DNA of 64,000 bases from Botryllus schlosseri (lineage: Eukaryota), in assembly GCA_051294905.1 (NCBI GenBank), contig CM119372.1:2792001-2856000 (forward strand). Direction: 5' to 3'. The position numbers were made by a program, and so were the translations under genes. This document shows, piece after piece, positions 2,190-34,400 of this stretch (positions are counted from its first letter, which is position 1; every line of letters starts with the position of its first letter). The notes beneath the pieces are model-generated. The model had not been told where the DNA came from and did not search any database. It was given only the letters and a program-made list of their open reading frames with translations.

Positions 2190-3005
2190 TTATGATTCAC
2201 AATGAGCAGACAATCGACCCTTTACAACGGTGGGCTACTAGATGTCAAATATGAAATGATAAGTTCAACGACAGTGCAAACATCTACGTTACAAACGAAA
2301 TGCAGGTTGCAAAAATTTTTGAAAACAATATTACCAATTTTTTGACGTAACGCTACAATTTTGACAAATGTTCAACTTTTTTTGACCTATTAAAAAACCG
2401 CCCTATTTAAATATTCTTGGAATGAAATGGTAATACATGCAAGTTTCGTTTTATTAGAATGTCAAGAATGTCTTACGAAATTTCGAGTTGCATCAGTTTC
2501 TTGTCTTATAGTACATTTGTGTCAACGAATGAAGTCGTTGGCCGACTTATGGGTATGATATTTCAACTTTGAGTTTTAACCGGAATGTAGTTTTATGCTA
2601 ATATTAGGGTTACTATTTATTCCATGTCTTGTCGATAGCTAAGACAATAGCAAAAAATCCTTATATAGCTCTCGGTTGCTTCGATTATTAGGAACTTGAG
2701 CCATCTCGGAACATTTGAGTATTTCAGTTAATGTTTAGAATTTGGACCCACAGATCATTCGTTTAAAAACAATTTTAAACGCTCACAAATATTTTGGGAA
2801 GGCGGAAGATACCGGTATATGTTGATTGTTCAGGGTAGGTAACGCTTGTAGGCTGCCAAAGTTTCGGATGACCAGAAACTACATTATTGGGTGAAGATAT
2901 GTATGACAGAAGGCGTTTAACATTTTCGGCCCATCGCTACTACATCTCCCCTACGGGTCACGAGTTATATACGGTGATAGGCTACTGTTTGACATAACGT
3001 GGAAC

Positions 3006-4241
3006 CAGAGGTGGTCAGTAACGAAGTACTTCTACTTTTTCGAAGTACTCAAGTAGTTTTCCTCTACTTCTGGTACTTAATCAAGTAGATCTGATTTCCG
3101 CTACTTCTACTTCTACTTCGTAATATTTTGTGATCTACTTACTTACTTTTCGCTATTTTCAGTTTGTCAAGTAGGAGTAGTTCAATCTTCCAATCAGGAA
3201 GATAGCCTGGAGTATCAACATTTGATTTTCATAAAAGTTTAGTAAAGCCCAGAATTCTCGTCGCGCTTCGCGCGCAGTGGATACGGAGTGACCAGTATGA
3301 TTTCACGAAAGTTTCGGTGAATATAATTTAGGTAGAGGGTTGCTGTGGTTCCGTTCACACCACATTGTCGCCGTTCACCCATATGAAATATTTAATTACA
3401 GTATATATGGCTCATCATAACGTTTGAAACTGATGTTTCGCAATCTAGCATTTACTTCCAATATCGTTATCTAGCATGTCCATGGCGTGTCCTAATCTGG
3501 AAAAGTGGACTCTGACTTTTTTTAGTTTTAGGGCTGTTTTAGCATACCACCTTTGAAACTTTCTGGATTTAAACCATGAGATACATGTTCTGCATTTAGA
3601 AGTAGTATTTATATTTCACTTTCAATTCCCAGTATCATATACTTTGAGTTATAATTAATACCAGTTCTTTAGTCTGGATAACATACCTGTTGAAGTATAA
3701 AAGCAAGTGTAGTAATGCCTTTAATTTCTAAAACTAAAGCTACACAATATTGCATTTTTACGGTCCACCATATTTTTTATTAACGTTTACTAATCGCACA
3801 AAGTGTTTACACCGTATTATATACAACTTCTCCGTATTGCTCTTTGACTAAACTACGGGCCTTATAGTATGGGGATGGCGCCATACCATGCTATTTTCTA
3901 ATACGTGCTGTACGAGAAAACAGAGGATTAGCATCGCTTTTCCATATCAATACTATCATTTTCATCACATGATGTGGACGACTGCTTATTGCTATTGCTA
4001 TCGAATCACGTGTCGCCTAGCTCAATTTGCACCATTTTACAATCCATGTGAACGAATTAGGATCGTTTTCACAACTACTTACTTACTTGAGTACTTTTAA
4101 AGTCAGTAAATTCTACTCCTACTTCAAGTAGTTTTAGGTTGCTTATGGAAGAAGTACTTCTACTTGTACTTGAGTAGATTTTTTTCGTCACTACTTCTAC
4201 TTCTACTTGAGTAGCTTTTTTGACTACTTTGACCACCTCTG
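3006..4241. mobile_element. hAT-type non-autonomous element (MITE) with subterminal TACTTCTACTTGAGTA repeats
   Basis: TIR CAGAGGTGGTCA...TGACCACCTCTG. Perfect 8-bp TSD CGTGGAAC at 2998-3005 and 4242-4249. Fragments of the same family at ~10000-10130, ~12000-12160, ~23460-23650 and ~50310-50590. Confidence 0.85.
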
Positions 4242-4253
4242 CGTGGAACTCAC

Positions 4254-5101
4254 CTTCGCAATTTTTTCTCCTTCCCAATGACGATGAAGGTAATTGTATT
4301 TCCGATTATTCCAATCGCAGCCATCAAGGACATAATTATCCAAAGTAATATATCTTGTACAACAGGAGCAGCGCCTGGATCTTCCCTGTGATAGAGGGTG
4401 GCATGGAAATATAACTACGTAACGAATTCTGTATTATAGTACACTGGGCTCTAATTCATCCTATAATTCATACAGCTCGATCGCTATAAGCAATAGATAT
4501 AACTGATTTTGATGGTTAGTAGAGAAATGCGGGCTCTCTATGTTGTGGAAATATGGGATCGAGTAACAAGGCCCCCAGATAACTATAATAATTACACGTG
4601 GTATAACATAATATGATGTGATTAAAATAGTTGATTGTGCAATTACTTTCTTACAGGTTCACCTTGCAGTTGCATTCTTCGCAAAATATGCAGTGGTTGT
4701 ATTCACCCAGAGTAATATATCGTCTTCTCCTACAGCGGGAGTGGAGTCTGCGTCTTCCCTGTTATAAGAGGTTGACATGAGAATTAAAACATAAAACAAT
4801 TTGTCTATTATACTACACTGGACTCTAATTGATCCCATCATTTTATTTGTTAACCCATATAGTTGGATGGTAAAATAGGTCCGCGTTGATATAACTTACG
4901 AAGAAATCATGGTCTCTCTGAAGCAATGTTATAGAATTGGGGTAGACCTACCAATTTCAATTTGTTTAAAATATTAGGTATGATAATAATTGTAGGAATA
5001 GGAATAGGACGTAACTGCGATTATGCATGTGCACCATCTTGCCGACAATCTTACCTCGGAGTTGAGCTGACCGCGAAATATGCAGTTGTCGTGTTCGTCA
5101 T
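4254..5101 (-). CDS. Class A GPCR paralogue 3, first three coding exons only (remainder presumably left of the window)
   Basis: Exons 5101-5055 (MTNTTTAYFAVSSTPR), 4758-4663 (EDADSTPAVGEDDILLWVNTTTAYFAKNATAR) and 4385-4254 (EDPGAAPVVQDILLWIIMSLMAAIGIIGNTITFIVIGKEKKLR: TM1 with the GN motif). All junctions are GT-AG and phase 2. The 132-nt TM1 exon matches both complete paralogues and the 47-nt first exon matches paralogue 2. I found no TM2 exon in 1-4253. Confidence 0.8.
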
Positions 5102-7374
5102 CTTTACCTATATCACTGAGTACCACAGCGTTCCATATGTAATGAAGCGCATAGTTGCCTGCTTTTTATTAGTCCCGGATATCCATGCCACGTTTTTGAT
5201 TGATAGGCCGTCATGCGAATAATACAATTTTGGGTAAAATAACATATTGTTTCCAAAATTGATCCTGATCCATATTTTTGATATGTCATGCATGGTTATT
5301 GTAATGAACGACACATGCAATCCAAGTCAATATGGATAATGATCATTATGACTTAATTTCCAGACGTACATTGTACAATCTTCACTCATTATATATTCGA
5401 ATGCAAGGCTCAGCTATTAACGTGTGCTGTAAAGTTCAATTATTTCCTAAAAGCTGAGTGTAAGTTGTAGTTCCACATTTGCAGCACCACAACAGCTTGC
5501 GCGGGGCTATGATCGACGTTGAATTGATCTTGCAGAAGAATTTAGTATACCCATCGACCTGATATTGATTTTTCGGTTCCACAGTGATTGCAAAGACAGA
5601 ATATCTCCGGAATTAATTTGTTCATTCACATTTCCGATTACTATACACCAGGGGTGGCCAACCTTTTTGCTATTTACGAACGTATTCCGATTAATCATGT
5701 AGTCTACGGCCTCATTCCATTGCAAGAATACTCGTAACTCGTAATGAACTAGCTGGGCGCCAAATAGCCATGTTGAACTGTCCATGTCCATTTCCGGTGA
5801 ACCCCGGACCAATCCATTGATTCGTATCGGCTTACAATACGCACCGAAAATCCGTGTGGTCATGTGACGTTACGCGTACCGTGAAATTTTTTTCTGATTC
5901 ATGAATGAATTTCATCATTATTATTAGTAGTTTTACGTATTACTTTTAAACATTTATCATTTTTCAGCCCCTGTGATCAGATTCACTGGTAGAGTTGATG
6001 GTGAGGGTGTCTTCGAAAGTTTAGGGCACGTTTCAAATGATGATGCATATATGGGTGGGTCAATTGTTATTAGTCACTTTGTTGCATGCTGTTATTTCTT
6101 AATCTCCCGTCAGGGTTGTCGGTATCGTGGTAACATATTGGAATTGCCCGAACGTACTACAAACAAATTTCATTCGTGAGGAGCACAGGATTCCGAGTTG
6201 ATATATCTATGTGGGGCTCCTCTGCTGATCGCATCTGCACTGTGGGACTCAGATTGCAAAGGGCGCCACTACATTAAAATCGAAAAATGAAGCCACATTG
6301 AATCGCAACTAGCGCGAAGAAAATTTCAAGATTAATTGTAATCTCTCAAGAATCCGCGGGTCAATTCGTTAATTTAATTGACAGGTCTACAGCCGCCAAC
6401 ACATACTACACACGTATTGTTTAACTGCTGTGTCATAACATGGGATGGTGCGAGACCGTAAACTGTTTAGACGCGCGTAGGCGTGCACTCTTATGATAGT
6501 TCGCTGTGATCGCCAATGTTTTCAGTTGGGATCAAGTCACGAGGTTTCACGTAACAAGGAAATCTCTGATGACCACGTTTGACTAGAGGCAAGCCCAGTT
6601 ATTTTCATTATGTAATCGAAACAAGTCCGCGTCCAAGTCCTTGTGTGAAAGGCTGACGCTGAATCCAAGTCAGTATCTTCAGGCATGAATCACAAGTGGG
6701 ACATTTTCAATGACTTTAATCCGGCGATACGTAATATATCGCAGTACACGAGCCCATGTATTCCTTTCTTGCGATCAAAACGACGGATCAAAATTAAATA
6801 CAAGTAGCGTTATAACTTCGACATTTTCGGGCTTCGACGTCAGGTAGGCCTACTACTACAACTATTACTTAAAATGGCGTATTGGCAGCATAACTCATTA
6901 ATTCAAATTGCAAAGATCGTGATATGGAAATATTTAGGACTTTTGTCGAGTAACATGATATTATCTTCTGTGAATCGTAGCATACATACGCCTACAAACA
7001 TCACAAGTTCTTGTGACAGAACGCAGTGATGATGAGAGCACTTTCTGGGAACTATGTTCTGCGGCTGACTTCAAGAGTCGGGGTGAAAAAAATAACCAGA
7101 AAGCTATTATCGAATCTGTAGTCCTTAGTTTTTGTTATACGTCGACCTTGTTTACCACATTTTCTCGCCGCAACGCTGTGATGTCCAATCGGCACACCGT
7201 TTGAGAACCACTGCCTTAGAGGATAGCAAATGAAAATGTTGACTACGAACTATTGCAATTCTAGGTTAGTAACGGATTCTGCGATAATGCTAATAATAAC
7301 AATAATTTAGGATATAATTGAATAAATTCGGATCATTTCAAGTCGGTTCAGAAATCGTAATTTGAAGTTATAAG

Positions 7375-7871: not shown

Positions 7872-8143
7872 GTCATAAGATACAGTTATCCATTCCCGAT
7901 ATCAGCCTCAAGAAAACTAGATTATACCAATATCTGCCGATCTTTTTCAATGATCGTGTTTTGAATATTACTATTGGTGAATTTCCGATCGACTGACGAT
8001 GAGATATACCCTATTGCGTTGATAAGTTTTGTTTTCAGTTGGACCTAATTGCCCGCTCTTTTGTGAAAATACAAGAATCATCGCCCATATATTTTCCCGT
8101 TGTGCGAATAGAGAATATGCTTTCTGGATCACGCAGCAAATTT

Positions 8144-11100
8144 TTAACTTGAAGTCGCAAGTGTTGTAGAGTTTTCCATTGTCTTTTCCTGATCTGCGAC
8201 ACGCCGTGCACTCCCGCAACGCCACAGCTTCCGAAGAACTCGGCCAGTTGCTACTCTTATGCTCCTAAGGAATGAAATAAGTTGATTAAGACATATTAGG
8301 CTTAGGATGAAACAACGAATACGCTATGCCGATTACAATGAAATCTCAAATGCGATATTGATTTGCGATCACATAAGGACTTCGAGAAAGAAAGATATTT
8401 CACCATACCTGGAACATATGTTGTAGAGAAACGGGTTGAGTGATTCCGATAGTCTCAGAAATATTAGCCGAAAGAAATCATACTTGTAGACAGCCAGTCC
8501 AAGATTACCATTTATGATAGCGATCCTGAAGGCTGTAATATACATAAATATACTGCAACTTGGAAGTCAAAGCTCAATGTATGCTACAACGGTAACAAAT
8601 CTCTTTCATATTACGGATTCAAATATCACATGTTTCTGGTCATTCCCGAGTAGCAAAATATCAGGCTGGTGATCGTTGCAAATATATTTCTATATTCTGT
8701 GTGTGGAGGACAAGGCAACGACACCTACCGATTTCCGGAGCATATCCCACAACAAACGAACCAATGATGAAGCAGATGTGCAGAACGGCTCTGTTTTCAT
8801 GCCTCAAATCCCTTGCTTTTGCTGAAAACATTCGAAAGGTGTAATGCAGTCATTGCCCCCTACCTGGATACTCCTGTCTTCTCACTACCCAATATATGTA
8901 TATGTTTCTTTCGATAGACAGCTCTGCAGTCAATCATTTAAATGGGCTCACAATTAGATAGCTTTTCGGCACTGTCTCTAAATATTACTGTAATAGTCGG
9001 TATTCAGACTATAGTCCGGGGGTAATTAAATATGAATGAACATGAACAAGGAACTAAACGATAGCATGTAGGGCCATGGTCTGGTGCAAGTCAACGCTGG
9101 TATATGGCTAATTGGGCATTGGTCTTAATATAGCCGAATTACCAACAAAGCGTTAACAATCATGCAACGACTCACCATTCTTCATAGCCCGGCGAGTTTT
9201 CCTGATGACAGCGAGTATGTAGATCGACAACGCTATCACGAGGAACGCGGGCAGAAAAAAGGCCACCGGCAGATAGTATTTGGTGTAATTTCGCGCGTAC
9301 GTCATCCTACAGAAACGAAAGTATGTGTGCTATGGTGCTATAGCTACGTGTGTATTGCTATACCATCCTACACCGTGGCAACATTCGAATTTTAAACATC
9401 TTTAAAATGATCTATAGCTTTCGCGTTGAACAGAAGCATAATTATGGACATTAATACGTTGAAACTGTTATTTATCAACAGATGCATGCTGTCTACTAGT
9501 GCGTAGCGGATCGACAAATTCTTTGGTCCAACGCCGGTCCGACTCCCGGGCCAGATTCGCGATCCGGCCTTAAAAACTTAATAATTATCTACTCACAGGA
9601 TGGTATTGAATATTGATTGAAACAATGCAAACAGGACATTCAAAACCAAACGATCAAACACAACCCTTATCTGCAGTAATTATGCCAACTTGGACTTAGC
9701 ATGTGGTTTATTCCGTGAACGCTTCACTTAATCGATTCGAGGGTGGAAGATGGTGATGCTGTCATATTTTTAGTAAAAAGTACTGTTCCGACTCCGATCC
9801 GACTCCGGCCATATCAGAAAAATTATTGATTCGGATCCGAACCGGCTTGGGCAAAAATGAGAAAATCCGGCTCCGCCATACTGTCTCTACTTACATAATT
9901 TCAAAGACAATCCAGCCGCATCAATATTGCATATGCTGTTAGCGTATGCTAACGCAAATTGACGTACGCCGGTAGGGAGTTTGACATGTGCAATCAAAAC
10001 TACTTCAAGTGCGTAAGTATAATAAATAACAGATCTGAAATGTAGTCAAGTAACTAATTTAAAAGTAGATTTAATCGTTGGCTCGCATACTTTTAGTAGT
10101 TACTCTAAGGTGGCTATACTGAAACACGACTTGACTAATGACGCCATACAAGTAGGGGCAATCTCGGAACATGTATTTACGAGTCGCGAATCGTGATACA
10201 GGGGCTAGCCAATAGGTTCATCCACTGGTTGTTAACCCCTGGGCTATAGCCTATCTCACACGGTTTTCATGACAATTTGACTCGTAAAAATGATACAAAC
10301 ATGACGGCCCGGAAACACGTTAATCTTTCCAAAATCAAGGGTATGTATGTAAGTAGATGTGCCCAAAACGTTCAATTAAATCGAAAGTAGTCAAATAACT
10401 ATTTGAGTAGGCTAATTAGTGCCAATTAGGCAAAACTTTTTTAGATGATTCGGACAACTATAATAACGTCGTGACTTAGCACCTCTTGGATTATCTTATT
10501 GATAATATTGCGCTTTATAGCACTATACACCGAATCCACGTTTTATACCCACAATATATGACTGTAAACGTAACAAATGCTTACCAATGGCGACTCATAA
10601 AGCAAGACCGCCGATACGGCTGAGAGGGTTGTACGATTTCCATTCCTGCGATTGGGTACCAGCCACTCGTGGCGAACGTTTCAATCCAAATAAAGCATAC
10701 TAGAGCCTGGAATGCAACGAGATTTTCGAAGATTCAAGCAAATGCTGTTATTGTAGGTTTGTACGTACCACGGCGAACTTCGGTGTGATTGTTTGAGCTC
10801 GGTCCACGCTCCTGAGCGCCACCACGTGGTATATCCCGATTGTTAAAATATGATGCACGGTGGCGATAGTTGTCCAGTGATCGATTGCCACTGCGAGCTA
10901 ACAGATACAAACGATCACCGTGAATCCATGCGTGAAAAATATAGATGTATTTATCAGATTTCCGCCAGGTTCTGTTTACGAGTACTATATATTTGTATTT
11001 CATGGCGTGGTACACGAAAATAGAACCCAATACAACACCGGGATCTGTATCCCTACGAATTGTTCTATTTGGCTCATTTTCACCCATTGAAAGGTTGCGA

Positions 11101-14100
11101 AAGTGCAAGTTGGTAGCTGAAATTGTCATTTGTCTGATTTATATCCCAAGCTTGGTGGAAATCAGTGAAATTCACGATTTCCGTTTACATTGTTGAACAT
11201 GTAACTTCGACCGAGACACATTTTTCCAAATTAGATTACAATTAGAATTACTGAATTCGCGAAAACAAGTACCGTTAAAATCAAATCATAATTCAGAATA
11301 GCAAATGTCTGTACAGCAAGCTTGGCTCGTTTCGCACTATAACAGTTCTCCTGTGGCAATTAGGGGAGACCAGAAATTAAATTAGAATATAAATTAGTGC
11401 ATGGAAACATTTCAAAAATTAGATTGGACTTGGAATTGGAATTGGAGCGAAGAAATATTTCACGAATTAGATTAGAATGAGAATTAGATTACCGGCATTT
11501 TGCTATAATTAGTCTAATTAAAGAACTCGAATTGTCTTCTGCTTCGGCCCATAGCTGGTTCGCGTGGTCGTCGTCGGCACTCAAGTAGAAGTAGATCGAA
11601 CGCAGACAATTTTCGCTCGGTTACACAAGTAAGTAACCATTTTCAAGACGTCAAAACTGCTTCACGAGGGTTTGAGAAGTGCAGTCCTGAGAGTGCTTGT
11701 AAGTAGATTGAAAAGGTAGATTCGGCCGCAAATTCTCATACGTTTAGTAGACGACCGAATGTCTTGACTTTTGAAATTACAGGATGTATCGTAGACGTAT
11801 CGTAATATTCACTTCACTTACACTAATGCAAGATGGTACACCGGTACAAGTTTTCGAAAACATAATCAAAATCACCGACAAGAGTATAAGTAGGTGACAA
11901 TTTCGAAAATGTATTTACTTACCTGATACAGGGGCTATTTCAAGCAGTCTTATTGACAATTTCGCTGCAAACGTGATGGAAACTTGTCCCAAGCCTACTG
12001 CCTACTTTACAAAATCCAAACTCTCAAAATTAATTAGTTTTGCATAGAAATTGCAAAATAGAAATGGAAGTACTTAAAAACACTTGATTATGTACCGCAA
12101 GTAGTATGACTACTTGTCCGCAACAGTCTACTACTAACACGTTACCGACCACCTCTGCTTCGGACTACAGCTGTACGATTATAATAATTGGACAAGGTTG
12201 CTACCCGAACGCCGAGACAAATGAATTACTTCGTAATAAATACTAGACATGCGGCTATTAGAAATTGTACGTATTATGTTATATAAAATAAAACCAGGTG
12301 ACATTGCTCGCTGATTAAACTATCGCCGATTAAGGAGGTTGGCGATTACCTTTCAATCGGCATCTGTGCAATCCACCCTAGTGGGTGCTTTCCGTATCAA
12401 AGGCGTTTTGCACCACGGCAATTGTTTTTTGTTTTGATTGAGGTATTCATGGTGTGTGTCGACTACTATGGTCCTCTACACCAGACAAATTCTGTTGTAG
12501 CACGACCCAATTCTAGGCTTCTTACAAGACACCGCTTACACGGATGAGATGGCGAGGACCACAGCAGCAATTGAAGTGTTATGCCCGATGTTATTTCTCG
12601 TACGGCTCCGGTACAGAAGATGACTAGGTATAGTTGAGTTTGCAATCGACGTCGATCCAATAAGGTCGTTTTTTCTTTGTTTCGGCGTCTTCGTTATCAA
12701 TAATTATCGGGTCATATGTATGTATATTCTCGTAATTTCTAGACAACCTCTAAATATTATTACATTATAAAAATAAATAATTGGAATGGCGTTTTTAAGT
12801 GTGTTTAATAAATGAGCCTGGCCTTCGGCCTTCGATTAGCTGCACATGAATTTAAATCGTGTTGCTATCTAGGGAATTCAGAGATTTTCACCATGTATGA
12901 ATAAGCCGATAAAAGTAGCTTGCGATGCGCGTCGTAAGGCAAGCTGGGGATGTTCGATAATCGTGAGTGTATAAAGAATTAGATGAAACAATAGATGACT
13001 GAATTACGGAATCCCGACACTTGAAGCCGTCGCAATTCACGGAACAATGCATGCCTTGTACGAAAATGATATTACTTTCGATAATAGATAACGTTGTTAC
13101 TCGCTGCGATCACGTAAACAAATTATGTTTGTTCTTACCTTGCATGTCCACACGGGCATATTGTAGTCTCTCGGTACAAGGCCTGATTTGTAATACATAA
13201 TCGGACTGACCGCGGCTGACATGAAGTCGGAAATGCATAGACTCATCAGAACGATATTTAGTGGGTTTCTGAAAGACGAAAATAACACTAAAGTTTACAT
13301 GGTTGATATACGTTCAATGGAATGTGGATTATTGGAGCGATGGGTATTCGTGGCGGACTTTTTTAATTTACTGGCTCTGTCTCGATACGATTGGAATACA
13401 GGCTACGTCCGGTTTCGTGAAAAACATTATTTTATGTTGAAGCTATAGTCACTGGTGAACTGGTCAAAGTGGTCATTAGGGCTGTTCAAAAATAACTTTT
13501 TTTCCTGAATCTTGCTGGTTACTTGATTAAATCGTTAGGTTGCCTTAAAAAACGACGCATACCAAATTTGAATTCATTCCGACAAATATTCGCGGGTTAC
13601 GTAGAGTTTGAAAATTTTGGATTTGCCCAAAAACGCAAAAAAAAATTTTTCTCAAATTTTTTTGCCAACCCCATGAAATTGTTGGGCTGTCTTCAAAAAC
13701 TATGCAAAACAAATTTGACTCAATTCCAAGCCGTAGAAGCGGAGTTATTCCAGTTTTTCGGTAATAATTCTTGGATTATCCACCAATCAAGGATAATCTC
13801 AGAATTATCGAATAAAAACTGAAATAACTCCGGTTCTACAGCTTGGAATTGAGTCAAATTTGTTTTGCATAGTTTTTGAAGACAGCCCAACAATTTCATG
13901 GGGTTGGCAAAAAAATTTGAGAAAAATTTTTTTTTGCGTTTTTGGGCAAATCCAAAATTTTCAAACTCTACGTAACCGGCGAATATTTGTCGGAATGAAT
14001 TCAAATTTGGTATGCGTCGTTTTTTAAGGCAACCTAACGATTTAATCAAGTAACCAGCAAGATTCAGGAAAAAAAGTAATTTTTGAACAGCCCTAGTGGT

Positions 14101-14935
14101 CATACATGATGATGACAGATGGGGATGGTTCAAACTCATAAAATGTTCCTTGTGATATCGCTGTCAGCTATTTATATGCATACAGGAATACATATTTCAT
14201 TGTATTAGGTTTTCATTTAATTCAAACCATGAAAAACCATATCTGCATAGATTACACATGCCAAATTATCAACTTCAAATGATAGCGATAGACGTAAAAG
14301 CCATATTTCGGATTCTAGTCAATAGTATATTAAAAGCTTCAAGAATGCTTTCGTATATTTTCATATATTTTATATGCCATATCATAGTTGAAAAACCAAA
14401 GCAAACTCAGCTCATCGTTCAGATTTTGCTAAATTTGAGTAAAACAAAAATCAAAAGTTTATATTAGCCAATGGTCACTTTTGTACAGATACTCCAACTG
14501 TAATTATCAGTCATAATCGTACTTACTGTCGGAGCGGTTTGCTTGCGGCAACAATAGCGAACACAGTGCCATTCGCGATGACCCCAACAACGGCTGTTAT
14601 GTACACGAATATCCAAAGTCCAATGTTTTGATCTTCCGTAGCGAACTGATATGGCATGCTGATATGAAGATGGATAATTGTTGGAAATTATGTTTAGAAA
14701 TATTTATAAATTATATGATATTTTATAGCAGTTCGTAGTCGGAAATATTATGTTGGTTCTTCCGAATCCATCACCCAATTTATTCAACTCTAGATTGTCC
14801 GAGATCATCTCCATGATCAAATATTGTTCTCAACTTATTGCACCAGATCATTTTGGTATTTTATAAATATATTTGCAGCCCTTACCCGAAAGTAGTGCCA
14901 ATAACATCCATGGGACTAGGGCTTGTGACGTTCAT
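8144..14935 (-). CDS. Orphan rhodopsin-like (class A) 7TM GPCR paralogue 1, 9 coding exons, 343 aa
   Basis: Exons 14935-14886, 14658-14527, 13268-13139, 10897-10769, 10706-10585, 9306-9176, 8821-8729, 8532-8409, 8264-8144. All are GT-AG with consistent phases, 1032 nt including TAA. Protein: N-glycosylation site MNVT; TM1 GVIANGTVF; TM2 NPLNIVLMSLCISDF; WTCK (TM3 Cys); TM4 CFIWIE; ECL2 SCF; TM5 YYLPVAFFLP; TM6 GSFVVGYAPE; TM7 LSESLNPFLY (NPxxY). Confidence 0.93.
9497..9881. mobile_element. MITE with CCGGCTCCGATCC repeats (GPCR intron)
   Basis: Starts TAGTGCGTAGCGGATCGACAAATTC. Same family as 43110-43504. The right end is approximate. Confidence 0.6.
12425..12570 (-). mobile_element. SINE body fragment (family of 20042, 35770, 42740)
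   Basis: Reverse complement of the 42805-42950 segment (GGTATTCATGGTGT.TGTCGACTACTATGGTC...TTCTAGGCTT.TT.CAAGACACCGCTTACA.GGATGAGATGG). Confidence 0.65.
13477..14095. mobile_element. Fold-back hAT MITE, nearly a full-length palindrome
   Basis: TAGGGCTGTTCAAAAAT...ATTTTTGAACAGCCCTA. Arms of ~280-300 bp are almost exact reverse complements, which is why ORFs 13523+ and 13720- give the same peptide. Perfect 8-bp TSD GTGGTCAT at 13469-13476 and 14096-14103. Confidence 0.93.
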
Positions 14936-22432: not shown

Positions 22433-25400
22433 CTACGACGACGTAGTTTGTCTGTCTTTCGGTGACGACTCGTCCGGTGACTGCATTTCTTCTGGCTTCG
22501 AGGAATTCGTTGGACAGCAACGACAACATAACACAATAAGAAACCGGTAGCATGCCGTTCTTATGCTCCTGTAAAAGTGGAAAACGACAACCTGTTGAAT
22601 TTTATCTCCTAACGTTTCATGGATTAACGAGATTCACTAATTTTCAGTTGTTACATCTTTGGGTCAATGATGGGATTATTATTATTATCATTATTGTAAG
22701 AGTAGTGACCCTTATCTCCCGTAAGGGTCTGGTGCGCCACGGTCAATAATGGGAATATCACCCTATTTCAAGGATAGACAGTCTCTACCTTGCCAAGCAG
22801 AGCCTAGGGACGAGAACGAATGCAATGCATACATATTGCCATCAGAGGTAGACAGTAAAGATGAGCTTCCACTTATAGTTCAGGTATATTGTGTCTACTG
22901 ACACACTGACTCACCCCACTTCGGATTTCGTGCCGTAGAAAGTAGATTTTGAATATGTGTTTGTACTGCTTGTATGAGTAAAATCACTATACAAACTGGG
23001 TGATATAACTCCTGTACCCGGTAATAGAATATATTTTCGATAATTGCACCTATTGGTGGAGTCGTTTGTAATTTTTATTGGTCGCGAGGACTTATAAAAC
23101 TATAGTTGCATTTAAAACCAATGGTTGTTTGAAACACTGTGTTTAAAACATGTTTTGAGCAGTGTTTTAAACAAATGCCTGATATGAGCCGACAGGCAAT
23201 TACCACCCAATATAGCCGACGTATACAATATCGGATGGTTGGAAACCTCAAACTAGTCCGTTCGACAGCTAGATAGTACGTAGATATTTCGTCAAAAGAG
23301 CTATATTAACCCTATATTTGCAATTTTTAATGTCACTCCACTATGTCGTCACAACTGAATATTCGTGACGTCATGGCTTGAAAAAAACAAGTTTTAAACA
23401 AGGGCCTTGTTTTAAACATGCTTGTTTCAAATTGATTGTTGTTTTAAATGCAACTCTACATAAAACTATTCCAGTCCTACATTTGAAACTACGTACTTCA
23501 GTTTTTCGGGGACCTTAATTTTTTACTTCCACTTGAAGCAGTTTTGAAGTATCCTGAAAACCGCTACTTCTACATTTAATTCGATAGAAATTTACGGTGT
23601 TACTACTTTTATTTGAGTTACCATTATTAATTAATTTGACCACCTCTCATTGTATTACAACCAGGCTGCAAAAACTATTATGAGTATTAACACGGTTGGA
23701 AATCGTATCAGGTACGGTTTGACCCAGAAAACCCCAAAAGACAGCCCCATTATAGCCCGTGCGTTAACTTTGCCTTTTGCTACTAGTAGAAGACTATTGG
23801 AATACAGTTTGCGATAACTAGAAAATCTAGGATGCAGTTACTTACCTCGAGCAGAGCGTGTAAAAGAACGGATTAAGGGATTCGGATATTCGCAGTAATA
23901 TGAAGCGAAAGAAATCATACGCGTAAACAGTCAGTCCAAAATCAGCGCCTCGCATCACGTTTATCCTAAATGCTGGAAATATGCAACAAAATAAGTACGC
24001 ATACACAAGTAGGCTACATATATCGTTATTAAAATAGAGCCATCTGACGATATACTTTGAAAATTGGTTGTTATCAGTTGCATGCATTGCCATATTGATA
24101 ATTCAAAAAAAATGTTATAACAATAGGGTCAACTCATTTATGCCATTAAGCTTGAAACATCCGTACTTACATACTATATGCCTACTTTGGTTTGTTCAAT
24201 CATTACCGTCCTCATAATAAGCGAATGATGTAGGTCTATAGACCTATATATGGCGTGAGAAGTGAGTTTATTAGTTAGTAAAGATTTATTCAATTTCCAT
24301 ATCATAACATGAAATAAGGGAATATGCGTGTGTAGCAGAAATGAGGAGAATCTAATTTGGTTTGAATCAGAAACATGGCCATATCGAGTAAAAGAATTAA
24401 TTTCAAAGATCGATAAAACTTCCGCTCTATTCATGATTTACAGTCAAATCCGACATTTCCAATCCGGTTAAAATACTCAGTCTTACCTTCAAGTCAATAC
24501 CCACAGAGAGTGGATTGCATAGACATAGGTTGTGGCCTCAAAAGATTGAACTGGTTACTATAGCATGATAAACGCTCTTTTAACATTTTAATATGTTCGG
24601 TGTACGCGGTGCTCATGACTTTATATCCCCAGTACTCGCTACTGTAACCGTTAGGTTGCTTAATAATTTACCTATTTCCGGAGAGTAACCTACGATGAAC
24701 GATCCAACGATGAAACAAATGTGAAGAAGAGCTCTGTTCTCTCTTCTCAAGTCACGTCGACTTCCTTGAAAGGAATACATAGACTGGTAGTCTATCACAT
24801 TGTGGAAATAGACATGTTGTTTACGCGGTCGACTGGACATTATGTGATGAACGAGGTATTCCATGAATCTGTCAGCCTAGCGCTTGTAACAATACGCTAA
24901 AATGCATCGGTATACCTTGGAAAACAACGTCAAATTTGACCCACTACCCACTGCTGCCATATAGTATAACATTCGACCCATTAGGCTATACGGCCTTTGT
25001 AAAGTAATAACCTCAATAAGGCGCTACGTTCCACGCGCATTGCTCATCGGGCAATTTCAGATTATGCGACTAAAATAAGCACATGACACACATTGAAATA
25101 CAATCTGTATATCACATACTTTCTCTTACAATTCTGCGTATCTTTGCGATTACGTGGAGGATGTAGATTGACAGAATCACAATTACGAACACTGGAGCGA
25201 CGAAGGCGATTGGAAGATAGTATTTCGAATATCTAATCCCGTAGCCGATCCTGAAATTGTTATGTATATTTATATGTGAAAAGAGAATAAATTCACCCAA
25301 TGTTGCACAAAATAAGATTTTACCTTATAGGCTATAGTCCCCACCTCGCTAGTACATACTCAATGTTGGGTTTTAAAAAATTGTCATCAGTTTATCACAA

Positions 25401-28400
25401 TACCGTGATTGATACTAACAAGTAATGCTAACTGGTTTGCTGATCTCACAAGATATATCATAAAGTGCATGAAAAGACTCACAAACATTTACGGCAGGGG
25501 TCGGCAACCTTTTTTTAGTCACGAGCCAAATTTCGAGTGTTCAAGTTTTTGGCGGGCCGGAATTTTTCCTAATACTATATTTTACGCTCACGTCGGTATA
25601 TTATCCTATATTGCTGCAATCTCAATCATACCAATCACAAAACGCGTATTTACACTTCAACAACGCAGAATAAATGTAACAATTGACGCAGCTTGCTCAG
25701 TGAAAGGTTTGATGAAGCAAGTCCGGAATACGTGATCTTAGCTTGGTTCTTCGTGAATTTCATTGTTAAAAACTATTGTTCCCATGCGTAGCCTACGTGC
25801 TACCAAAAATTGATGCAATTTCTTCTGCATTGTTGGTCATGCTGCGATAAACACTAATTTCAAGAACGTACTCTTTGTCAAAGTCATGCAGCGATATGCT
25901 CTTTGTACGAAATTTGTCATTCAATTAAACTGCATCGCATTTCAAAAAGGCCCATTTGAAATTTTCAGGCAATGTTATTGGCGTCCACATTAAACGGCCT
26001 ACTGAATAGTCAGAATTTATTTTGTAGAGAAGGAATCTCGGAAAAGCGGGTGAATATTCAGTAATTAGATTTCATATCACAATTACAAATGTAGTGTTGG
26101 TACTCGGTTTTCTCTCCTCCAGTACAGGAAAGTGAGCATAAATTTCTTTGTACTGTTGACATTCTTAGAGTCGTAGATTTGTTTCGAATGCGCCGCAACA
26201 TCTCATGTATTCAGTTGCCCCCCCCCCCCGAAGTTGCAAATTCAATTTCTTCAGATGTGTCGTTAAATGTACCAGGAAAGCACGATTAGCTACCCATTTT
26301 CGATTATGACATTATGAGTCGGCGATATTTGCATTTTCGAGGAAAGTTGCTATTTCATTTCAGTTCATACAGTCGTGCAAGCATAGCTGCTCGACTTAAT
26401 GCGCGAGCACGGCAGATATACAGGACATCGCCTTATTGATTCTCTGCTTCTAGTAATATCTGGCGTAACTGTTGGTGATTCAGCTTGTGATACAAAATCA
26501 TATTAACAGTTTTCATCATTGTGGCCGAAACATCTATTCAGGTTTGTTGTCTTGGCGCACAATGCATTCTGGTGAATTGAACTATAGATAACTAACCTAT
26601 ACAGAGGCTATTTATCTATTATTAAACACTAAACAGTGTAAGTTTGAGATTTTGTCATTGCGTCTGAGATGTTCCCAGTGTTTTTAAAGCAGAGAAAGGA
26701 CACCTTTATTGTCACACCCCATCAGAATGGTAAGCCCTTCAATAAGTATGGTAGTTTACACCTTCGGTTGCGAGATACACCCGATTGATAAGCACTGATC
26801 TAGTCTACTCTACAGACAATCTCCATCTCCTACTTTAACCGCCTTCGTTTTATGGCGTAGCAATAGACTAATATACGATGTAGGATACTTATATATATTG
26901 TAGCAATGCCACATTCTTTCCAAACATTGCTGTACTGCGGATTGAAACTCATGAAACGGCGGGCCGTATCGTTGTGATATGACTGATTACTAATTATTAT
27001 GTCGCGGGCCGGACGATTTCGCTTGGCGGGCCGGATCCGGCCCGCGGGCCGTAGGTTGCCGACCCTTGATTTACGGAATACTTCCAGGACATGTTAGCAC
27101 TGCTGTACATTCACGAAAGAAGGGTTATCTATCTCTGATCTTCTTGTATTCCCCACAAGGTCACAATGGATTTTTCGCATGACTGTTCATATGGGTATAT
27201 ACTTTACAAGTTCACTTGGAAACGCCATACCCGTTGCACTTGACGTAAATTTAAAAGTCAATTGCTAATAAGCAATCATTTATATTTTCAATTTTGTGTA
27301 ATTGGGAGCAGATACGAACGTTACGTCAGATGACTACAGGCGTAATTGCCTGCCTTTTAACCAAGTTCATATGTAACAACTTCATTATGTTTCGTCACAA
27401 CAACAATACTACAGTAATTCCTTACCACAAGTCTGACATGAAGCAGGATCTCGTGTAGGGATCTGATGCCTCTTCAATCTCCATCCCTACCATCGGATAC
27501 CACCCGCTGGTTGCGAAACTTTCGATCCAAATGAAGCACATCAATGCCTGTGCTCGATGCGACACCAAGATGACAAATCTAGTTATTGGTAAGGTAGCCG
27601 TGAACTTACTGCGACATGCTTCGAATTGATTCGACGCAATCTCTTCGGTTTATTCAGAACGAGGACTCTATATATCACAGTAGCGAGAATATGGTGAACC
27701 GTTGCGATCGTAGTCCAATGATCAATCATAACAGCAAGCTGAAAATAAAAGCAATGATTCCGATTGCCAGGTTTCCAACAAACCCTATTACACATGCTCT
27801 TAAATTGACATAAATCAAATACCTAGATAGTATTACAGACGTATTTTATTTACTCTAATAATGAGAATGCAAAGCTCAGTCGTGGTGTAGACTATATAGC
27901 AGGGGTGGGCAAACTTTTGAGCTCGCGGACCGCATTCAATATCTGAATCCATTCGCGGGCCGCACTATATAAAATTGGGATTATGAACCAAAACGCAATA
28001 TTGGAATTTGATTATATAGCGAATTTACCGTGGAAAAGGAAACTGATGCTGCCCTTCCCTTTTTAGACGTGTTAGTAGAGAGATCAGGACAAATGTTTTT
28101 AACGTCGGTGTACAGAAAACCTACTTTCACTGGTCATTATATTCGTTGGGATTCATTTTGCCCGAAGCGGCGTAAATTAAACCTCATTTCATCGCTCGTT
28201 AATCGCGCCTTGCGCCTCTGTTCACCAGAAAAACTGTCACGCGAACTGGATGATATCCACTTGATTCTCTCCAAAAATGGCTATCCGGACCACATATTGA
28301 AATGCTCCATCTCTAGGGTATTGAAAAAATCGGATACAGCTCCAAAATATGGACCAGAAAAATGCCCGGCATTTTTGCACCTACCTTGGCTAGGTAACGT

Positions 28401-31400
28401 GTCTAGCCGTTTTGAAAAGCTTATTAAATCGGCTGTTCACCGTTGCTATTACAGCGTTAACACGCATGTAGTGTACACGACGAAACCCTTGTTACCCAAC
28501 TCTCGAAAAGATGTACTTCCTGCCTTTGATGCAAGTAATGTTGTTTACCAATACAAGTGCCACTGTGATAGTAGGTATGTAGGACGTACATCTCAAAGAT
28601 TGTTTGAGCGTATCAAGCAGCATATCCCAAAATTGATTCGGTCAAAAACTTGCGCAAATGATCGCACGGAGCTCGCACGTCAGTGCAAATTGGCTGCAAA
28701 AACAGACTGCTATGATGATTACCAAGCATATGCTTCGTCAATTGGTCAGCATCTGAGTGGAAACCTTGCCTGTGCACAGCACTATGATGACAATATGTTC
28801 ACTGTCATTGCGCGTGGTAGGTCTGTGTTTCATTTAAAAGTGTTGGAGTCTACTATTATTCAGTTGAGCAAACCTATTTTATGCAGACAAAAAGATTTCC
28901 TCTATAACCTACAAATTTCTCATTAGTGCGTGTTGTTCCGTGCGTGTAATTGTTTATTTACAAATTGTGCTGCTACTATAGTACCGTATGTCCGTATACT
29001 TCATAGTTTAACGCGAAACAATAACTTCATATTGTTAATTTATTCGCTAAAAGCTTTTCGACTAACTCTCGTCAGTAGCGAACGTTAGTGATGGGGTGAA
29101 TCAAATTCGAAATGTAAGAACTATTTTGTCTGTATGACGTAATAATAACAAAAACAAACAACTAGTAGACGGGCTAGATACGGTAGTAACGGTACAAAAC
29201 AAACGTTACGAGTACATATTCGGTTATAAATAACCGAAAACACAACACATAACATTAATGAAATATTCCAAGAGTGTAGAGGCGTTCCTTCTTCATAGTT
29301 TCAACTTCATAGTTTGTTATTGTTGCCATTGGTACAATGCGAATTTCATGGTTTGTGATTTTGATTGTTGCGTCATACTTTGCCTTTTTGGTTTTGCTTT
29401 TAAATCTGTTTAAATCCCTTTAGTGTGCCGATAACTCTTGAAAAGAGGCCCCGAAAAGTCTTCGAGTTAATAAATATTATTCTACAATGGATATTGTATT
29501 GAAAGCGAAGACATGTAGATAATATATAGGCTTATTTAAAACAAACCAAACATTGCTTTGATGATATCGTACACGCGTCAGAAACAGTGGCGAGATTTCT
29601 TAGGCTGGTCGACTTCAATTACCAATTTGTCAAAACTATAGTGATGAAAGTCGGTTGTCCCGATTCTTGGAACAGGATTGAAATTTAAATCTGTGAGCAC
29701 CGATCTGTTCATAGATTTACTAATCCTACTTTTGGTTCAGTTCCAGGACACACAATGCTGACAGCATCATAACGATGTTAGCTTCAAACCATACGCTTCT
29801 ACTATGTGTAATAGATAAAATATAAAAAAATCTACCTAAGACACGCGCGAATCGTTTTTTGTAAGCACATCACTGAAATAATTAAAACTGGGGTGGCCAA
29901 TCTGAAATCATACTCGTTATCCGAATTATGTCAATCTCGTTCATGATTTCTGTGATGTTTAGCAGTTGAAACCTTTGAAACTGCGTGGGCCTTGAGATCG
30001 GGCTGTCGCGCCAGAAATGAAACATAAAAAATAGTATAGGAAGTATTTAACCTAGAACAGTTGTTCTCAAACTTTTTAAGACACGCTACCCCCCTCTTAT
30101 GATGGTGAAGCATTTCGCGCCCCCTTATGGTCATATCACAAAACGCAACCAGGATGCTACCAAACCTAACGGATAGTTTGATGGCATGAACGGTTACGGC
30201 TGTGGATGAGAGAGATTTTCAAATATGAGATTCAGACTAAACACGGATCAATAATTTTGAACCGGATGTAAATCGCGCGGAGCGCGAAAAAAATTTTCAG
30301 TTGAGCTCAGCTTCGCGCCCCCTTCAGATGCTTTCACGCCCCCAAGGGTGCGCGGCCCCCAGTTTCAGAAACACTGCCTTCGAATATTGTTAATAAGTTT
30401 CTTCAGACTGTCGCGGGCCGCACGGAACGGCGTTGCGGACCGCATGCGGCCCGCGGGCCGTAGTTTGCCAACCCCTGCTATATAGCGATCGACCAATGGT
30501 TCTTATAGCCGGAATGTTAGCTCCCCAAGGCTCCCTAACATGCTTCACAACTAAATATATGGTTCCGGCGTACACATCACACTCCCGTGTACTCACATGG
30601 AAAATGCATACCATCATTTCACGTTATTGTTTATTCATTGATATGAATTAGGTTTCTTTTATCAATGACTGCTCATATGCGAACTTTGATTCTCTGCAAT
30701 TGTTGCTAACCGAGCGATAGATTGAAAGAGAAATATGGTATTGTTGTATAAAATATACCCCGAATGAAATATTTATAGTTGCAAAAAAACAGTATACTGT
30801 CATAATTATTATAGCGAAGTTGTACATGTGATCAATATATTTACACTGGACACATTATCTTTTACTCTTAATTAAAGTCACGGACTTGAAACCAGTACTC
30901 TAAATTGAAGAAGGTTCAGCATCGAAAAGCCTATAAGAACAGCCACTCTTAGCATTACGTAACATCGCATTGTACTTCACTAAATGCGTTTGCCTGACAA
31001 CTTATGCAAAGGTTGGAGTTTAGTTACGTCATAGTGTCCTACAATGGTGTGGACACAAAGCAAATCTCACGGCTCACAGCCTACGTCGCACTTTCAATTT
31101 GGACGAAGGCAATTTTACGGTAATTTTTGACCGGCTTTTTGAGCGCGCAAAGTTATAAAATTGGTATCAATCGACAGCTACAGTGGTAGGGATTGCGATA
31201 ATATAAATTTTGTTCTGCTCGTGGTCCTGGAACCCCCCGAAATCAGCCTCGAGTGTTGCATTGTAACGGCGTTTGGTATCGTGACGCAACAGTGCTGTCT
31301 AGAATAATATGACGCCGCACAGGGGCAAATGCGCACGAGAGTGAGCGTGTGAATGCTCGATCGCTTGCGCAACAAGGGCCAATACGCTTGAGGTCGGCGC

Positions 31401-34400
31401 GGCTCCTCAACTTCACGCGGGCGGTATTCTTGCGTCACGATACCAAATTCTGTAACAATGCACCATTTGAGGCTGATTTTGGTGGGTTCCAGTCCCACAA
31501 GTGGAATAAAATTTAAATTCTCGCAATCAGTACCGCAGTAGCTTTCGATTGATACCAATTTTATCAATTTTCACTCTCGGCAAGCCGGTCAAAAATTACC
31601 GTCAAATTGCTCTTAGCCAATTCGAAAGTGTGACATAGACTAATCTCAGTGAGCCGTGAGATTTGCTTGTGTCCACACCATCTTTAGGACACTGTAGTTG
31701 CTTGAGCCATACTATCCAGGAGTGCCTATAGCGCCCGCCACGAAACCGATGGTCGAAGGTACTATTTTTACAAGCAAGCCGGTGGACACTCAAACCATGA
31801 ATTACCGACAGCAAAGTCTAATGCTCAACGAGATGTCCGTTCAATTGATCCATAGTTGTTGCGCAAGAATTGATGAATTGTCATAAACTTCCATGGATAA
31901 GACGTATTAGCATTTAGTTGTAGGCTAATAAAATTCCAATTTGTACATCCGTCTAGGGCGCGCCGCACAAAGATTTTAACGCATTCGAACAAGTATTGAC
32001 CTGAAGAGCGTATCCAAATATCATTGGATTACGACAGCATCAACGTGCGAATTATTACCGAGGAAATTCTAAACATTTATCGGCTGATGCAACACAAATC
32101 CGATCCAGTATGTCATAAAATAAGATAAGAAGACTAATTTTATGTCAGTACAAACCATATCGTATGATGATGTACCTTGCACGTCCACTCGGGAAGATTG
32201 TAATCTCGCGGTATTAAGCCAGACTTGTAATACATAATTGGACTGGCGACGGCTGACAAGAAATCGGACACGCAGAGACTCATCAGAATGATGTTGAAAG
32301 GATTTCTGAAACAATTCTATCGATTTAAGGTAATATATATTACAGTGTGGAAGAGGGTTCGTCAAATTGAAAGTTTTTCGACCGAACCAAAGAAGATAGG
32401 CGATGACGCGGCGAAAGTTACACTTCGAAATCCCTACTTCTATTTATAAATGAGCAGACATTGACGGCGATTGCTTTGACTTGAGGAGCCTATACTAAAA
32501 GTGATTACTTTGGACACCTCTAGTTGCGGTACATATCGTCTTATAGGGCACATATTACATACATATTAATACCCAAGGATGTGTATTATAATGCCTGATG
32601 TTGTGAACTCTGTGAAATCTGACATCAACTAGTAAAACATTGGACTGAGATACATAATATAGTTTTGATTCTCAGTTCTGACCAACTTCTATGTGTCGGA
32701 GATTTATCCAGGCTCGTCGTCGCCGACTTCACTGCAACTGCAGTGCATTGAAAAGCACAGACGTAAAGTGAGCCGAGCTGCAAGTCGGCAGCAACGACCG
32801 CGATCGAGACGTAGATAGGGGTGACAGCAACTGAAGAATGACTGCGAGAGAAATTGAATGACGTCCACGAGAATACAAAAAGCAAAGAGCGATGAACATT
32901 ACGAAGTTTTGTGTCGTGGAGCACAAGGCCTAAAAAGACGATAAGCACCACTGTGTTGTGACCATTACCACATACATACATACATACATACATACATACA
33001 TACATACATACATACATACATACATAGGCCTACATACATACATACATACATACATACATACATACATACATACATACATACATACATACATACATACATA
33101 CGTACATTTATACATACATACATACATACATATATACTCACTCTCTCAGAGTCTTGTTTCTTGTGATGACCACGAATACGATAGCATTGGCAATGGTGCC
33201 AATTAATGCCGCAATGACCACAAATACCCAAAGCAACGTATTTTGCTCTTCTGTCGCGAACATGTACGGAGCCCTGATCACAAAACGAGAGATACGCAGA
33301 TAGACTCAATGTGATATGAATTATTTTCTACGACCATTGTCACAATATGGAGGAATGATTTGATAATAATCAATGCACTCAATTCCAATTGGTGGATATA
33401 CTCATTCGAATTGTCGAATACTTTCCAGACCCGCACCAGATTTATGTTCGCAGTCGCAATCTGTTGGAACTGATCTATGCATATTGCATAACCATTCGTA
33501 TGACTGACACTGCCATACAATGCATAATGTGCATATGCACAGTGCACACCCAGCTACATTTCACAGAGAAATGGCATAACATCGGCAATCGCGTGAATAC
33601 ATTTGGTGACTGGGGACAGACAAAATAGAGCAGCTGAGTGATTTGATTCCATAAGCCAGTGGTTCTCAACCGGGGGTCCGCGAAGCCTCAAAATAGTTAA
33701 TAACTAAATTTGTATTTTTTCAATTAGGAAAATTACAAGGCAGTTTCGCTTCATTAGTAATGAAACTCCAGAGCTCACATCAACAGAATGGCCCTCCGAA
33801 ATGAAATATCCTACTTAGCAGATTCATTTTATTTGCTAAATTGCCAATAGCCCACTGATACAAACATTTTGTTGTAAAGAGATGTTTTGTTGTGGACTGT
33901 GGATAAAAAGTTGCATGAGTAACTTCGAATTGTTTACAAAAATACGTTTTCTTCTGTGGTATACACAACAATTTTTTTCATAATTACTTCAAAAGCTGTT
34001 AGATGGAAACGACTAGACTTGACGATATATGTTCAATAAAAATATTTGTTTGTCAATTTTGGTGCCATATTTGTTAAGATCATACCCAAATGTGTCGTCG
34101 GAAGCGTTATGCGGTATTAATACTTTCGCCACCACCTTTATTTATGGAAATGGATTTTCGGCACTAGTTCATATCAAATCGAAGGCGCGTATTTTCAAGA
34201 CACGACCACGTATTTCAAGAAATGCAATTGCAGAAGTCAACCTAATTTCTACATGAAATAGTAGGATCTTATTTTCAAGAAACGTCATTTTGTTGCTGTT
34301 TATCACTAAGCCTACAGTTGTCATTTGCAGACAGATGACGATTGCACGATATTTGAGCTAAATTTGAACTAAAACTTCTTGGGGGTCCGTGAAGGTCCGA

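What the first reader, a model, noticed from the sequence alone, without database searches (positions are those of the whole stretch)
4340..5101. New hybrid exon created by intragenic tandem duplication in GPCR paralogue 3
Seen: paralogue 3 has an extra 96-nt, phase 2-2 exon (4758-4663) that paralogues 1 and 2 lack. Its first half (EDADSTPAVGEDDILLW) resembles the start of the TM1 exon (EDPGAAPVVQDILLW). Its second half (NTTTAYFAKNATAR) resembles the end of exon 1 (NTTTAYFAVSSTPR). The two flanking introns are also homologous (TATTATAGTACACTGGGCTCTAATTCATCC vs TATTATACTACACTGGACTCTAATTGATCC). Inference: a ~375-390-bp block (exon end, intron, exon start) duplicated in tandem. This gained an intron, added 32 aa and added two N-glycosylation sequons (NTT, NAT) to the ectodomain. 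The frame and both splice sites survived despite visible divergence, which hints at selection. The exon is symmetric with a weak donor (GTGAAC), so it could be a cassette exon that toggles N-terminal length.
Basis: partly seen in the sequence, partly recalled or inferred. Interest (0 to 1): 0.72.

Follow-up and report, generated by a model that had tools for sequence, protein, structure and literature searches.

The report
Receptor N-terminus doubled with its intron
A likely sea-squirt receptor gene carries an old side-by-side copy of its first intron with the exon ends around it, making an extra 96-base exon-like piece that would double the receptor's short outer tail; the mechanism is already known, and splicing of the new piece is not shown.

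Summary
The duplication is real. A 374-392-bp unit (end of exon 1, whole intron, start of the TM1 exon) sits twice head to tail. It leaves a 96-nt, stop-free, phase 2-2 piece (4758-4663) with inherited AG and GT. The two paralogues have one intron there. The piece would repeat nearly the whole ectodomain (32 aa; sequons 1 to 3). Selection is suggested, not shown: dN/dS is about 0.27 over 28 codons, but a neutral hybrid is disfavoured by only 0.3-2.7 log units. RNA gives no support so far. Two raw RNA runs have zero depth there; a third run's contigs use the TM1 donor but keep both duplicated introns, and most joints were not displayed. The rest of the gene is not in the window. This is multiplication of an existing intron (as reported for Arabidopsis TOUCH3), not de novo intron gain. 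Two relatives in this ascidian orphan family carry independent N-terminal repeats (2 of 49, against 1 of 71 distant hits: not enriched). The scan noted a related splice-site repeat in a worm GPCR before. Ordinary, tidy; interest low.

The parts
5055..5101 (-). Exon 1, coding part (47 nt; Met + 14 aa, one N-x-T sequon), phase-2 donor GAG|GTAAGA
   Evidence: paralogue 2 exon 1 is 50 nt, paralogue 1 candidate exon 1 is 47 nt
4759..5054 (-). Intron copy A (296 nt, GT-AG)
4663..4758 (-). Predicted hybrid exon (96 nt, phase 2-2, 32 aa). 4758-4707 copies the TM1-exon start, with a 6-nt in-frame insertion; 4706-4663 copies the exon-1 end. Junction at about 4707/4706
   Evidence: splicing not shown
4653..4654 (-). 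Competing GT (CCT|GTAAGA), 8 nt into intron B; its use would add 8 nt that hold an in-frame TGA
   Evidence: sequence; U1 match 6 vs 5.5; read-through stop
4386..4662 (-). Intron copy B (277 nt, GTGAAC ... ACAG)
4254..4385 (-). TM1 exon of paralogue 3 (132 nt, phase 2-2, same length as in paralogues 1 and 2); donor AAG|GTGAGT
   Evidence: an X1 contig leaves the window exactly at 4254
4707..5096 (-). Duplicated unit, upstream copy (about 390 nt)
4333..4706 (-). Duplicated unit, downstream copy (about 374 nt)
3006..4241 (.). 1236-bp element with 12-bp terminal inverted repeats and an exact 8-bp target-site duplication (hAT-like by these marks; family features recalled), 12 nt behind the TM1 donor; absent from an X3 contig, so polymorphic
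8147..14935 (-). Paralogue 2: nine exons, 343-aa open frame, no extra exon; comparison gene
22436..36110 (-). Paralogue 1: seven modelled exons 33273-23846, candidate exon 1 at 36110-36064, candidate last exon from about 22570; comparison gene

Best explanation
An old tandem duplication copied the first intron of this GPCR gene together with nearly all of the coding sequence ahead of TM1, and the fused middle piece is likely spliced in as an ordinary exon in at least part of the mRNA, which would give a receptor with its short outer tail repeated twice. Shown: the duplication, its unit, the inherited splice sites, the open frame and the single-intron state of the paralogues. Follows from the geometry: a unit that starts in one exon and ends in the next copies both splice sites and gives a symmetric exon. 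Inferred: the event (unequal crossing-over or replication slippage; not distinguishable), the use of the exon, and weak purifying selection on it. Predicted effect: the conserved TM1 Asn moves from residue 45 to 77 and sequons go from 1 to 3. In a family whose tails are short, Ser/Thr-rich and variable, this most likely acts as a tolerated longer glycosylated spacer that affects folding and surface delivery, not as a new domain.
For: Homology of both exon halves and the intron, 0 of 300 shuffles each. Paralogues have one phase-2 intron before a 132-nt TM1 exon, which also marks the 6-nt indel as an in-frame insertion in the hybrid. Over 28 codons: 10.3 synonymous changes at 20.3 sites, 12.7 non-synonymous at 63.7 sites, dN/dS 0.27 (0.24-0.34 by gap placement); the first 8 tail codons show 4 silent and 0 replacement changes (stretch picked after the fact). 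All-neutral evolution is disfavoured (2 dlnL 6.7). In simulations the joint chance of no stop and the observed counts was at most 0.033 in 16 settings with a neutral hybrid, and 0.07-0.62 in 8 constrained settings. The introns took 5 indels and fell to 56% identity (154 of 275) while the hybrid kept frame, AG and GT. An X1 contig leaves the window exactly at the TM1 donor, so the gene seems transcribed and spliced there. Two relatives carry the same kind of tail repeat in otherwise whole 7TM proteins, so such tails look tolerated.
Against: No joint 5055-4758 or 4663-4385 is among the rows shown (15 joints shown, 411 hidden). X1 contigs cross the exon-1 donor (4867-5069) and the TM1 acceptor (4600-4254) unspliced. 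Depth arithmetic leaves no room for a spliced exon-1 contig in X1 (left over -1 of 210). Raw runs X8 and X12 have zero depth over 4397-5338, while X8 covers the last exons of paralogue 2. 'Both copies constrained' beats 'hybrid neutral since the duplication' by only 1.1 log units on exons alone, and by 0.3 if the conserved 3' intron is the clock. The last 96 nt of the introns are 67-72% alike, about the same as the exon halves (71-76%). The hybrid donor is weak and has a stop-bringing competitor 8 nt on. No later exon of paralogue 3 lies in 1-4253, and no database protein held its TM1 exon (weak search), so a pseudogene is not excluded.
Confidence: 0.55

Rival explanations
1. The gene works, but the hybrid piece is a decaying pseudo-exon: it is skipped (5055 to 4385), which restores the ancestral 45-residue spacing, and its frame survives by chance or by gene conversion around the acceptor.
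For: Weak donor with a stop-bringing competitor. The skipped form has the TM1 Asn at 45, like paralogue 2 (46) and P0001 (45). A neutral hybrid stays stop-free in 42-64% of simulations. The likelihood gap is 0.3 with the 3' intron as clock. Patchy intron identity (44-60% vs 67-72%) fits conversion.
Against: dN/dS 0.27 is below the 0.5 expected if one of two branches were neutral and the other fully constrained; the gap is 2.1-2.7 log units with the whole or 5' intron as clock. The tail half, outside the conserved intron stretch, has the clearest silent excess. No skipping joint was seen either.
Confidence: 0.2
2. Paralogue 3 is a dying or dead gene (or its 5' end is poorly spliced), so the hybrid exon may once have been used but no longer matters.
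For: Later exons are not within 4.2 kb, while the matching introns of the paralogues are 836 and 1258 nt. All listed X1 contigs over the 5' end keep introns; zero depth in X8 and X12. A transposon sits 12 nt behind the TM1 donor in this haplotype.
Against: All three exons are open with canonical sites. The 132-nt TM1 exon is intact and groups with its paralogues. The X1 contig goes on for 262 nt off the stretch from the exact donor, as a splice to further exons would. Intron-holding contigs at depth about 5 also occur in intron 3 (2546-2743), so they may be nascent RNA or DNA. Only about 6 and 13 in 100 of X8 and X12 were read.
Confidence: 0.13
3. The hybrid is a regulated cassette exon that switches the receptor between a 45- and a 77-residue tail.
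For: Symmetric 96-nt exon, both forms in frame, weak donor. N-terminal splice variants alter ligand selectivity in other GPCRs such as PAC1R (PMC12663942, start of abstract only).
Against: Symmetry is automatic for this duplication type. The donor is no weaker than a donor of paralogue 1. Neither junction was seen.
Confidence: 0.12

Closest known systems
Intron multiplication by internal tandem duplication: Arabidopsis TOUCH3 (Knowles and McLysaght 2006) and segmental duplications holding whole introns (Gao and Lynch 2009), both seen only as described in the introduction of PMC4974935
   Same: A whole pre-existing intron is duplicated with exon sequence on both sides; both splice sites are inherited; a fused exon results.
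   Different: Here the unit is the unstructured tail of a GPCR, not a folded domain, and splicing is not shown.
De novo intron gain by tandem duplication: Rogers AGGT model, ATP2A1, potato RdRp (PMC4974935, part 1 of 5 read; PMC3443670, passages)
   Same: A tandem duplication adds one intron to the gene.
   Different: There at least one splice site is newly recruited from exon sequence. Here none is.
Amphioxus 'mirage' repeats over intron-exon boundaries in globin and Adh3 genes (PMC3087553, passages)
   Same: Tandem copies of splice boundaries in an invertebrate chordate, proposed as a source of new exons and introns.
   Different: Mirages are multi-copy minisatellites of one boundary, 81-100% alike in BflGb6. 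This is one old two-copy unit with both boundaries.
Ascidian orphan rhodopsin-class GPCRs: Styela clava XP_039252057.1, XP_039252305.1, XP_039269978.1 (P0013); Ciona XP_078481676.1; unnamed P0001 and P0037
   Same: The cluster belongs to this family (P0001 is 59-67% identical to paralogues 1 and 2; named hits are 32-39% identical to P0001). P0013 (period 31 aa) and P0037 (period 24 aa) also repeat the tail just ahead of TM1, in separate supported clades.
   Different: Whether those repeats include an intron is unknown. The automatic names (NPY-, ghrelin-, galanin-receptor-like) disagree with each other and give no ligand.

Membership tests
Intron multiplication by internal tandem duplication (TOUCH3 type) | Adjacent direct copies within one gene | tested here: met
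Intron multiplication by internal tandem duplication (TOUCH3 type) | Unit holds a whole earlier intron plus exon sequence on both sides | tested here: met
   (tails, heads and whole intron: 0 of 300 shuffles; intron middle alone not significant)
Intron multiplication by internal tandem duplication (TOUCH3 type) | Relatives keep the single-intron state | tested here: met
   paralogue 2 clearly; paralogue 1 with a candidate exon 1
Intron multiplication by internal tandem duplication (TOUCH3 type) | Both intron copies are spliced out of mRNA | tested here: inconclusive
   no such joint among 15 shown, 411 hidden; low or no depth
De novo intron gain by tandem duplication (Rogers AGGT / potato RdRp) | At least one splice site newly recruited from exon sequence | tested here: not met
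   both sites align to the old sites
Whole-exon tandem duplication | New exon is a copy of one whole neighbouring exon | tested here: not met
   its halves come from two different exons
Cassette exon | Length a multiple of 3, same phase on both sides | tested here: met
   96 nt, phase 2-2
Cassette exon | Both included and skipped mRNAs exist | tested here: inconclusive
Rhodopsin-class (class A) GPCR | 7tm_1 domain above the Pfam cut-off | tested here: inconclusive
   met for the close relative P0001 (81.9 bits vs 30.5); single exons of the window gave no Pfam hit; only TM1 of paralogue 3 is in the window
Rhodopsin-class (class A) GPCR | TM1 homologous to family members, with the conserved Asn | tested here: met
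   profile hit E 2e-7; 53% identity to P0001 over 34 aa; tree
Ciona LF / YFV neuropeptide receptors | Sequence kinship with the deorphanised receptors | tested here: inconclusive
   three short family motifs had 0 occurrences in the supplements of PMC6475428, and the two printed passages look unrelated by eye; no alignment was made

The most novel reading that the evidence does not exclude
This ascidian orphan GPCR family repeatedly doubles its membrane-near tail by copying the first intron with its flanks. Each copy becomes an optional exon that lets one gene switch tail length and glycan number, and so tune surface level or ligand access. Three independent tail repeats (this gene, P0013, P0037) would be the visible cases.
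Probability: 0.1. Interest if true: 0.55.

Novelty: new member of a known kind. Interest (0 to 1): 0.3.

Why it matters
It is a clean, readable example of intron multiplication in an animal receptor gene: unit, junction and ancestral state are all visible in one 36-kb cluster. It shows how a GPCR tail can gain length and glycosylation sites in one step. It opens no new mechanism. It would matter more if the exon proved to be regulated, or if the repeats in the two relatives arose the same way.

Tried and rejected
No whole genome is held, so the exons beyond the window start could not be read. The run search listed no RNA holder on record (no evidence either way). The single lay used 1-9400 to include a control; repeats crowded the tables (411 joints and 642 letter differences hidden), so the junction question stayed open, and I cannot say whether X3's 11 substitutions and 7 gaps in 4545-5479 touch the hybrid. 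Protein searches: TM1 exon of paralogue 3, 0 hits among 2 candidates; P0001 found only itself among 1902 candidates. Metagenome scan with P0001: 61 pattern matches, none confirmed. The atlas's top cluster was ctenophore; rejected as a taxon lead because 9 of 10 top named sequence hits are Styela clava and 1 is Ciona. Assembly artefact and dispersed repeat were rejected: copies 56-76% alike, single-copy depth in X3. Enrichment of tail repeats in the family is not shown: 2 of 49 family members vs 1 of 71 distant hits (this gene left out as the ascertained case; rows without Met start, aligned Asn or a 30-200-residue tail were dropped). P0052 (p 0.007, score 21) was rejected as chance and vanished. 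The tree is the quick one, with paralogue 3 at 10% of columns and nine short or partial rows left out. No fold was run: the tail is short and only one exon of the membrane part is in the window. Eight paper searches listed no paper on this gene or on tail duplication in ascidian GPCRs; most subscription papers are not covered, and Gao and Lynch 2009 is not held.

Full report
Verdict. It is an old copy of exon end, whole intron and next exon start in a likely ascidian GPCR gene. The mechanism is known. Use of the resulting 96-nt piece as an exon is more likely than not (0.55 as an ordinary exon, 0.12 as a regulated cassette), but no spliced read shows it.

Anatomy (minus strand). Exon 1 coding part 5101-5055, intron 296 nt, hybrid piece 4758-4663, intron 277 nt, TM1 exon 4385-4254. 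The copies lie 392 nt apart at the 5' end and 373-374 nt apart at the 3' end. The exon-1 tail matches the hybrid tail (z 7.7), the hybrid head matches the TM1 head (z 8.7) and the introns match (z 9.2); 0 of 300 shuffles reached each score. The intron match is uneven: 44-60% in the first 200 nt, 67-72% in the last 96, 154 of 275 overall. The first two thirds are not significant alone. The unit starts one or two codons after the ATG and ends at the Trp before TM1, so nearly the whole ectodomain is repeated with a period of 32 residues.

Ancestral state. Paralogue 2 (14935-8147) gives a 343-aa open frame over nine exons. Paralogue 1 has seven matching exons of the same phases and, but for one, the same lengths. 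Both have a 132-nt TM1 exon after a phase-2 intron, and exon 1 is 50 nt and (candidate) 47 nt. So one intron is ancestral, and the 6-nt indel is an in-frame insertion in the hybrid. No later exon of paralogue 3 lies in 1-4253, although the profile finds eight exons of paralogue 2 and seven of paralogue 1 at E below 1e-12. The rest of the gene is beyond the window start or lost.

Selection. Over 28 paired codons dN is 0.23, dS 0.85 and the ratio 0.27. A model with both copies constrained beats full neutrality by 2 dlnL 6.7. The relevant rival is that only the old exons were constrained and the hybrid drifted. That rival loses by 1.1 log units on exons alone, 2.1 with the whole intron as clock, 2.7 with its 5' half and 0.3 with its 3' 80 nt. 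Kept frame and kept AG/GT add a little. This is suggestive only. The hybrid donor matches a U1 consensus (recalled) at 5.5 of 9, the low end of 15 paralogue donors and tied with one of them. A GT 8 nt further on scores 6 and would bring an in-frame stop.

Reads. Four of 24 listed runs were laid on 1-9400. X3 behaves as DNA and holds the duplicated region at depth 49-60, with 11 substitutions and 7 gaps over 4545-5479. X1 (RNA by guess) has a 609-nt contig that matches 4600-4254 without differences and leaves at the exact TM1 donor for 262 nt off the stretch, as a splice to later exons would. That contig keeps intron B, another keeps the exon-1 donor unspliced (4867-5069), and bin arithmetic leaves no depth for a spliced exon-1 contig. 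At depth 5, with an intron-3 contig present as well, this may be nascent RNA or DNA; contigs also drop rare forms. X8 and X12 (6 and 13 in 100 read) have zero depth over 4397-5338, while X8 covers the end of paralogue 2. Fifteen joints were shown and 411 hidden; none shown concerns the hybrid. The reads therefore neither confirm the exon nor exclude it, and they lean slightly against efficient splicing.

Family. An exon of paralogue 2 found one database protein, P0001 (356 aa, 7tm_1), 59-67% identical to paralogues 1 and 2. It retrieved 58 proteins at E 1e-10 or better. Of the ten top hits looked up, nine are Styela clava and one is Ciona. Their automatic names disagree, and the best solved structures (motilin, serotonin, opioid receptors) are distant, so the ligand is unknown. 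In 50 full-length members the TM1 Asn lies at residue 33-123 (median 53.5) with 0-4 sequons ahead of it. Paralogue 3 would have it at 77 with three sequons, or at 45 with one if the piece is skipped. Two members carry their own tail repeats: P0013 (Styela XP_039269978.1, period 31) and P0037 (unnamed, period 24), each 0 of 300 shuffles. They lie in different supported clades from paralogue 3 (three changes forced; quick tree). The rate, 2 of 49, is not clearly above 1 of 71 among distant hits.

Mechanism. A duplication with one end in exon 1 and the other in exon 2 copies both splice sites of the intron between them. If its exon part is a multiple of three, the fused exon is symmetric and in frame at birth. 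That explains the symmetry without any appeal to regulation. The likely result is a longer, more glycosylated spacer before TM1. That N-glycans on class A tails help folding and surface delivery is general knowledge, recalled and not tested here.

Known kind. The introduction of PMC4974935 (part 1 of 5 read) describes this event for Arabidopsis TOUCH3 and calls it multiplication of a pre-existing intron, not creation of a new one. PMC3443670 (passages) leaves such cases out of its intron-gain count. PMC3087553 (passages) reports boundary-spanning repeats in amphioxus. PMC2396169 and PMC6475428 (passages; supplement search) show that ascidians hold lineage-specific orphan rhodopsins. I found no paper on this gene in eight searches; bioRxiv supplements and most subscription papers were out of reach.

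Scores. Novelty: new member of a known kind. Interest 0.3. The boldest reading, a recurrent route to switchable receptor tails in this family, has probability about 0.1.

Noticed in passing
window 3006-4241: 1236-bp element with 12-bp terminal inverted repeats and an exact 8-bp target-site duplication, 12 nt behind the TM1 donor of paralogue 3. An X3 contig jumps from 2997 to 4242, so the insertion is polymorphic; very high summed depth suggests a large non-autonomous family.
   Followed up: partly
P0013 (Styela clava XP_039269978.1) residues about 52-104; P0037 residues 1-50: Independent tandem repeats of the tail just ahead of TM1 (periods 31 and 24 aa) in two relatives; gene structures not seen.
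   Followed up: partly
window 4432-4455 and 4806-4829: A 24-nt intron stretch 47-70 nt before both acceptors differs at only 2 places, while the intron middle is 44-48% alike; no other copy in the window. Gene conversion or a splicing element; unexplained.
   Followed up: partly
window 10769-10897 and 27610-27738: The TM3 end of paralogues 1 and 2 lacks a canonical DRY motif (GIYHV and VIYRV at about that place; motif recalled), as does P0001.
   Followed up: no
window 5096-5098 and 4704-4706: The codon before the first Asn is ACG in copy A and GTG in copy B, each one change from ATG, while the closest relatives start Met-Asn. The ancestral start codon may have been inside the unit and lost in both copies.
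   Followed up: no
window 6715-8263: X1 contigs run from the last exon of paralogue 2 down to 6715, which suggests a 3' untranslated region of about 1.4 kb ending close to paralogue 3.
   Followed up: no
window 13474-14098: 625-nt palindromic element, 95% self-complementary, in intron 2 of paralogue 2.
   Followed up: no
window 28012-28926 (+): 304-aa open frame that looks like the C-terminal end of a Penelope-type reverse transcriptase with a GIY-YIG endonuclease (by eye, recalled), inside an intron of paralogue 1.
   Followed up: no
   Followed up: no
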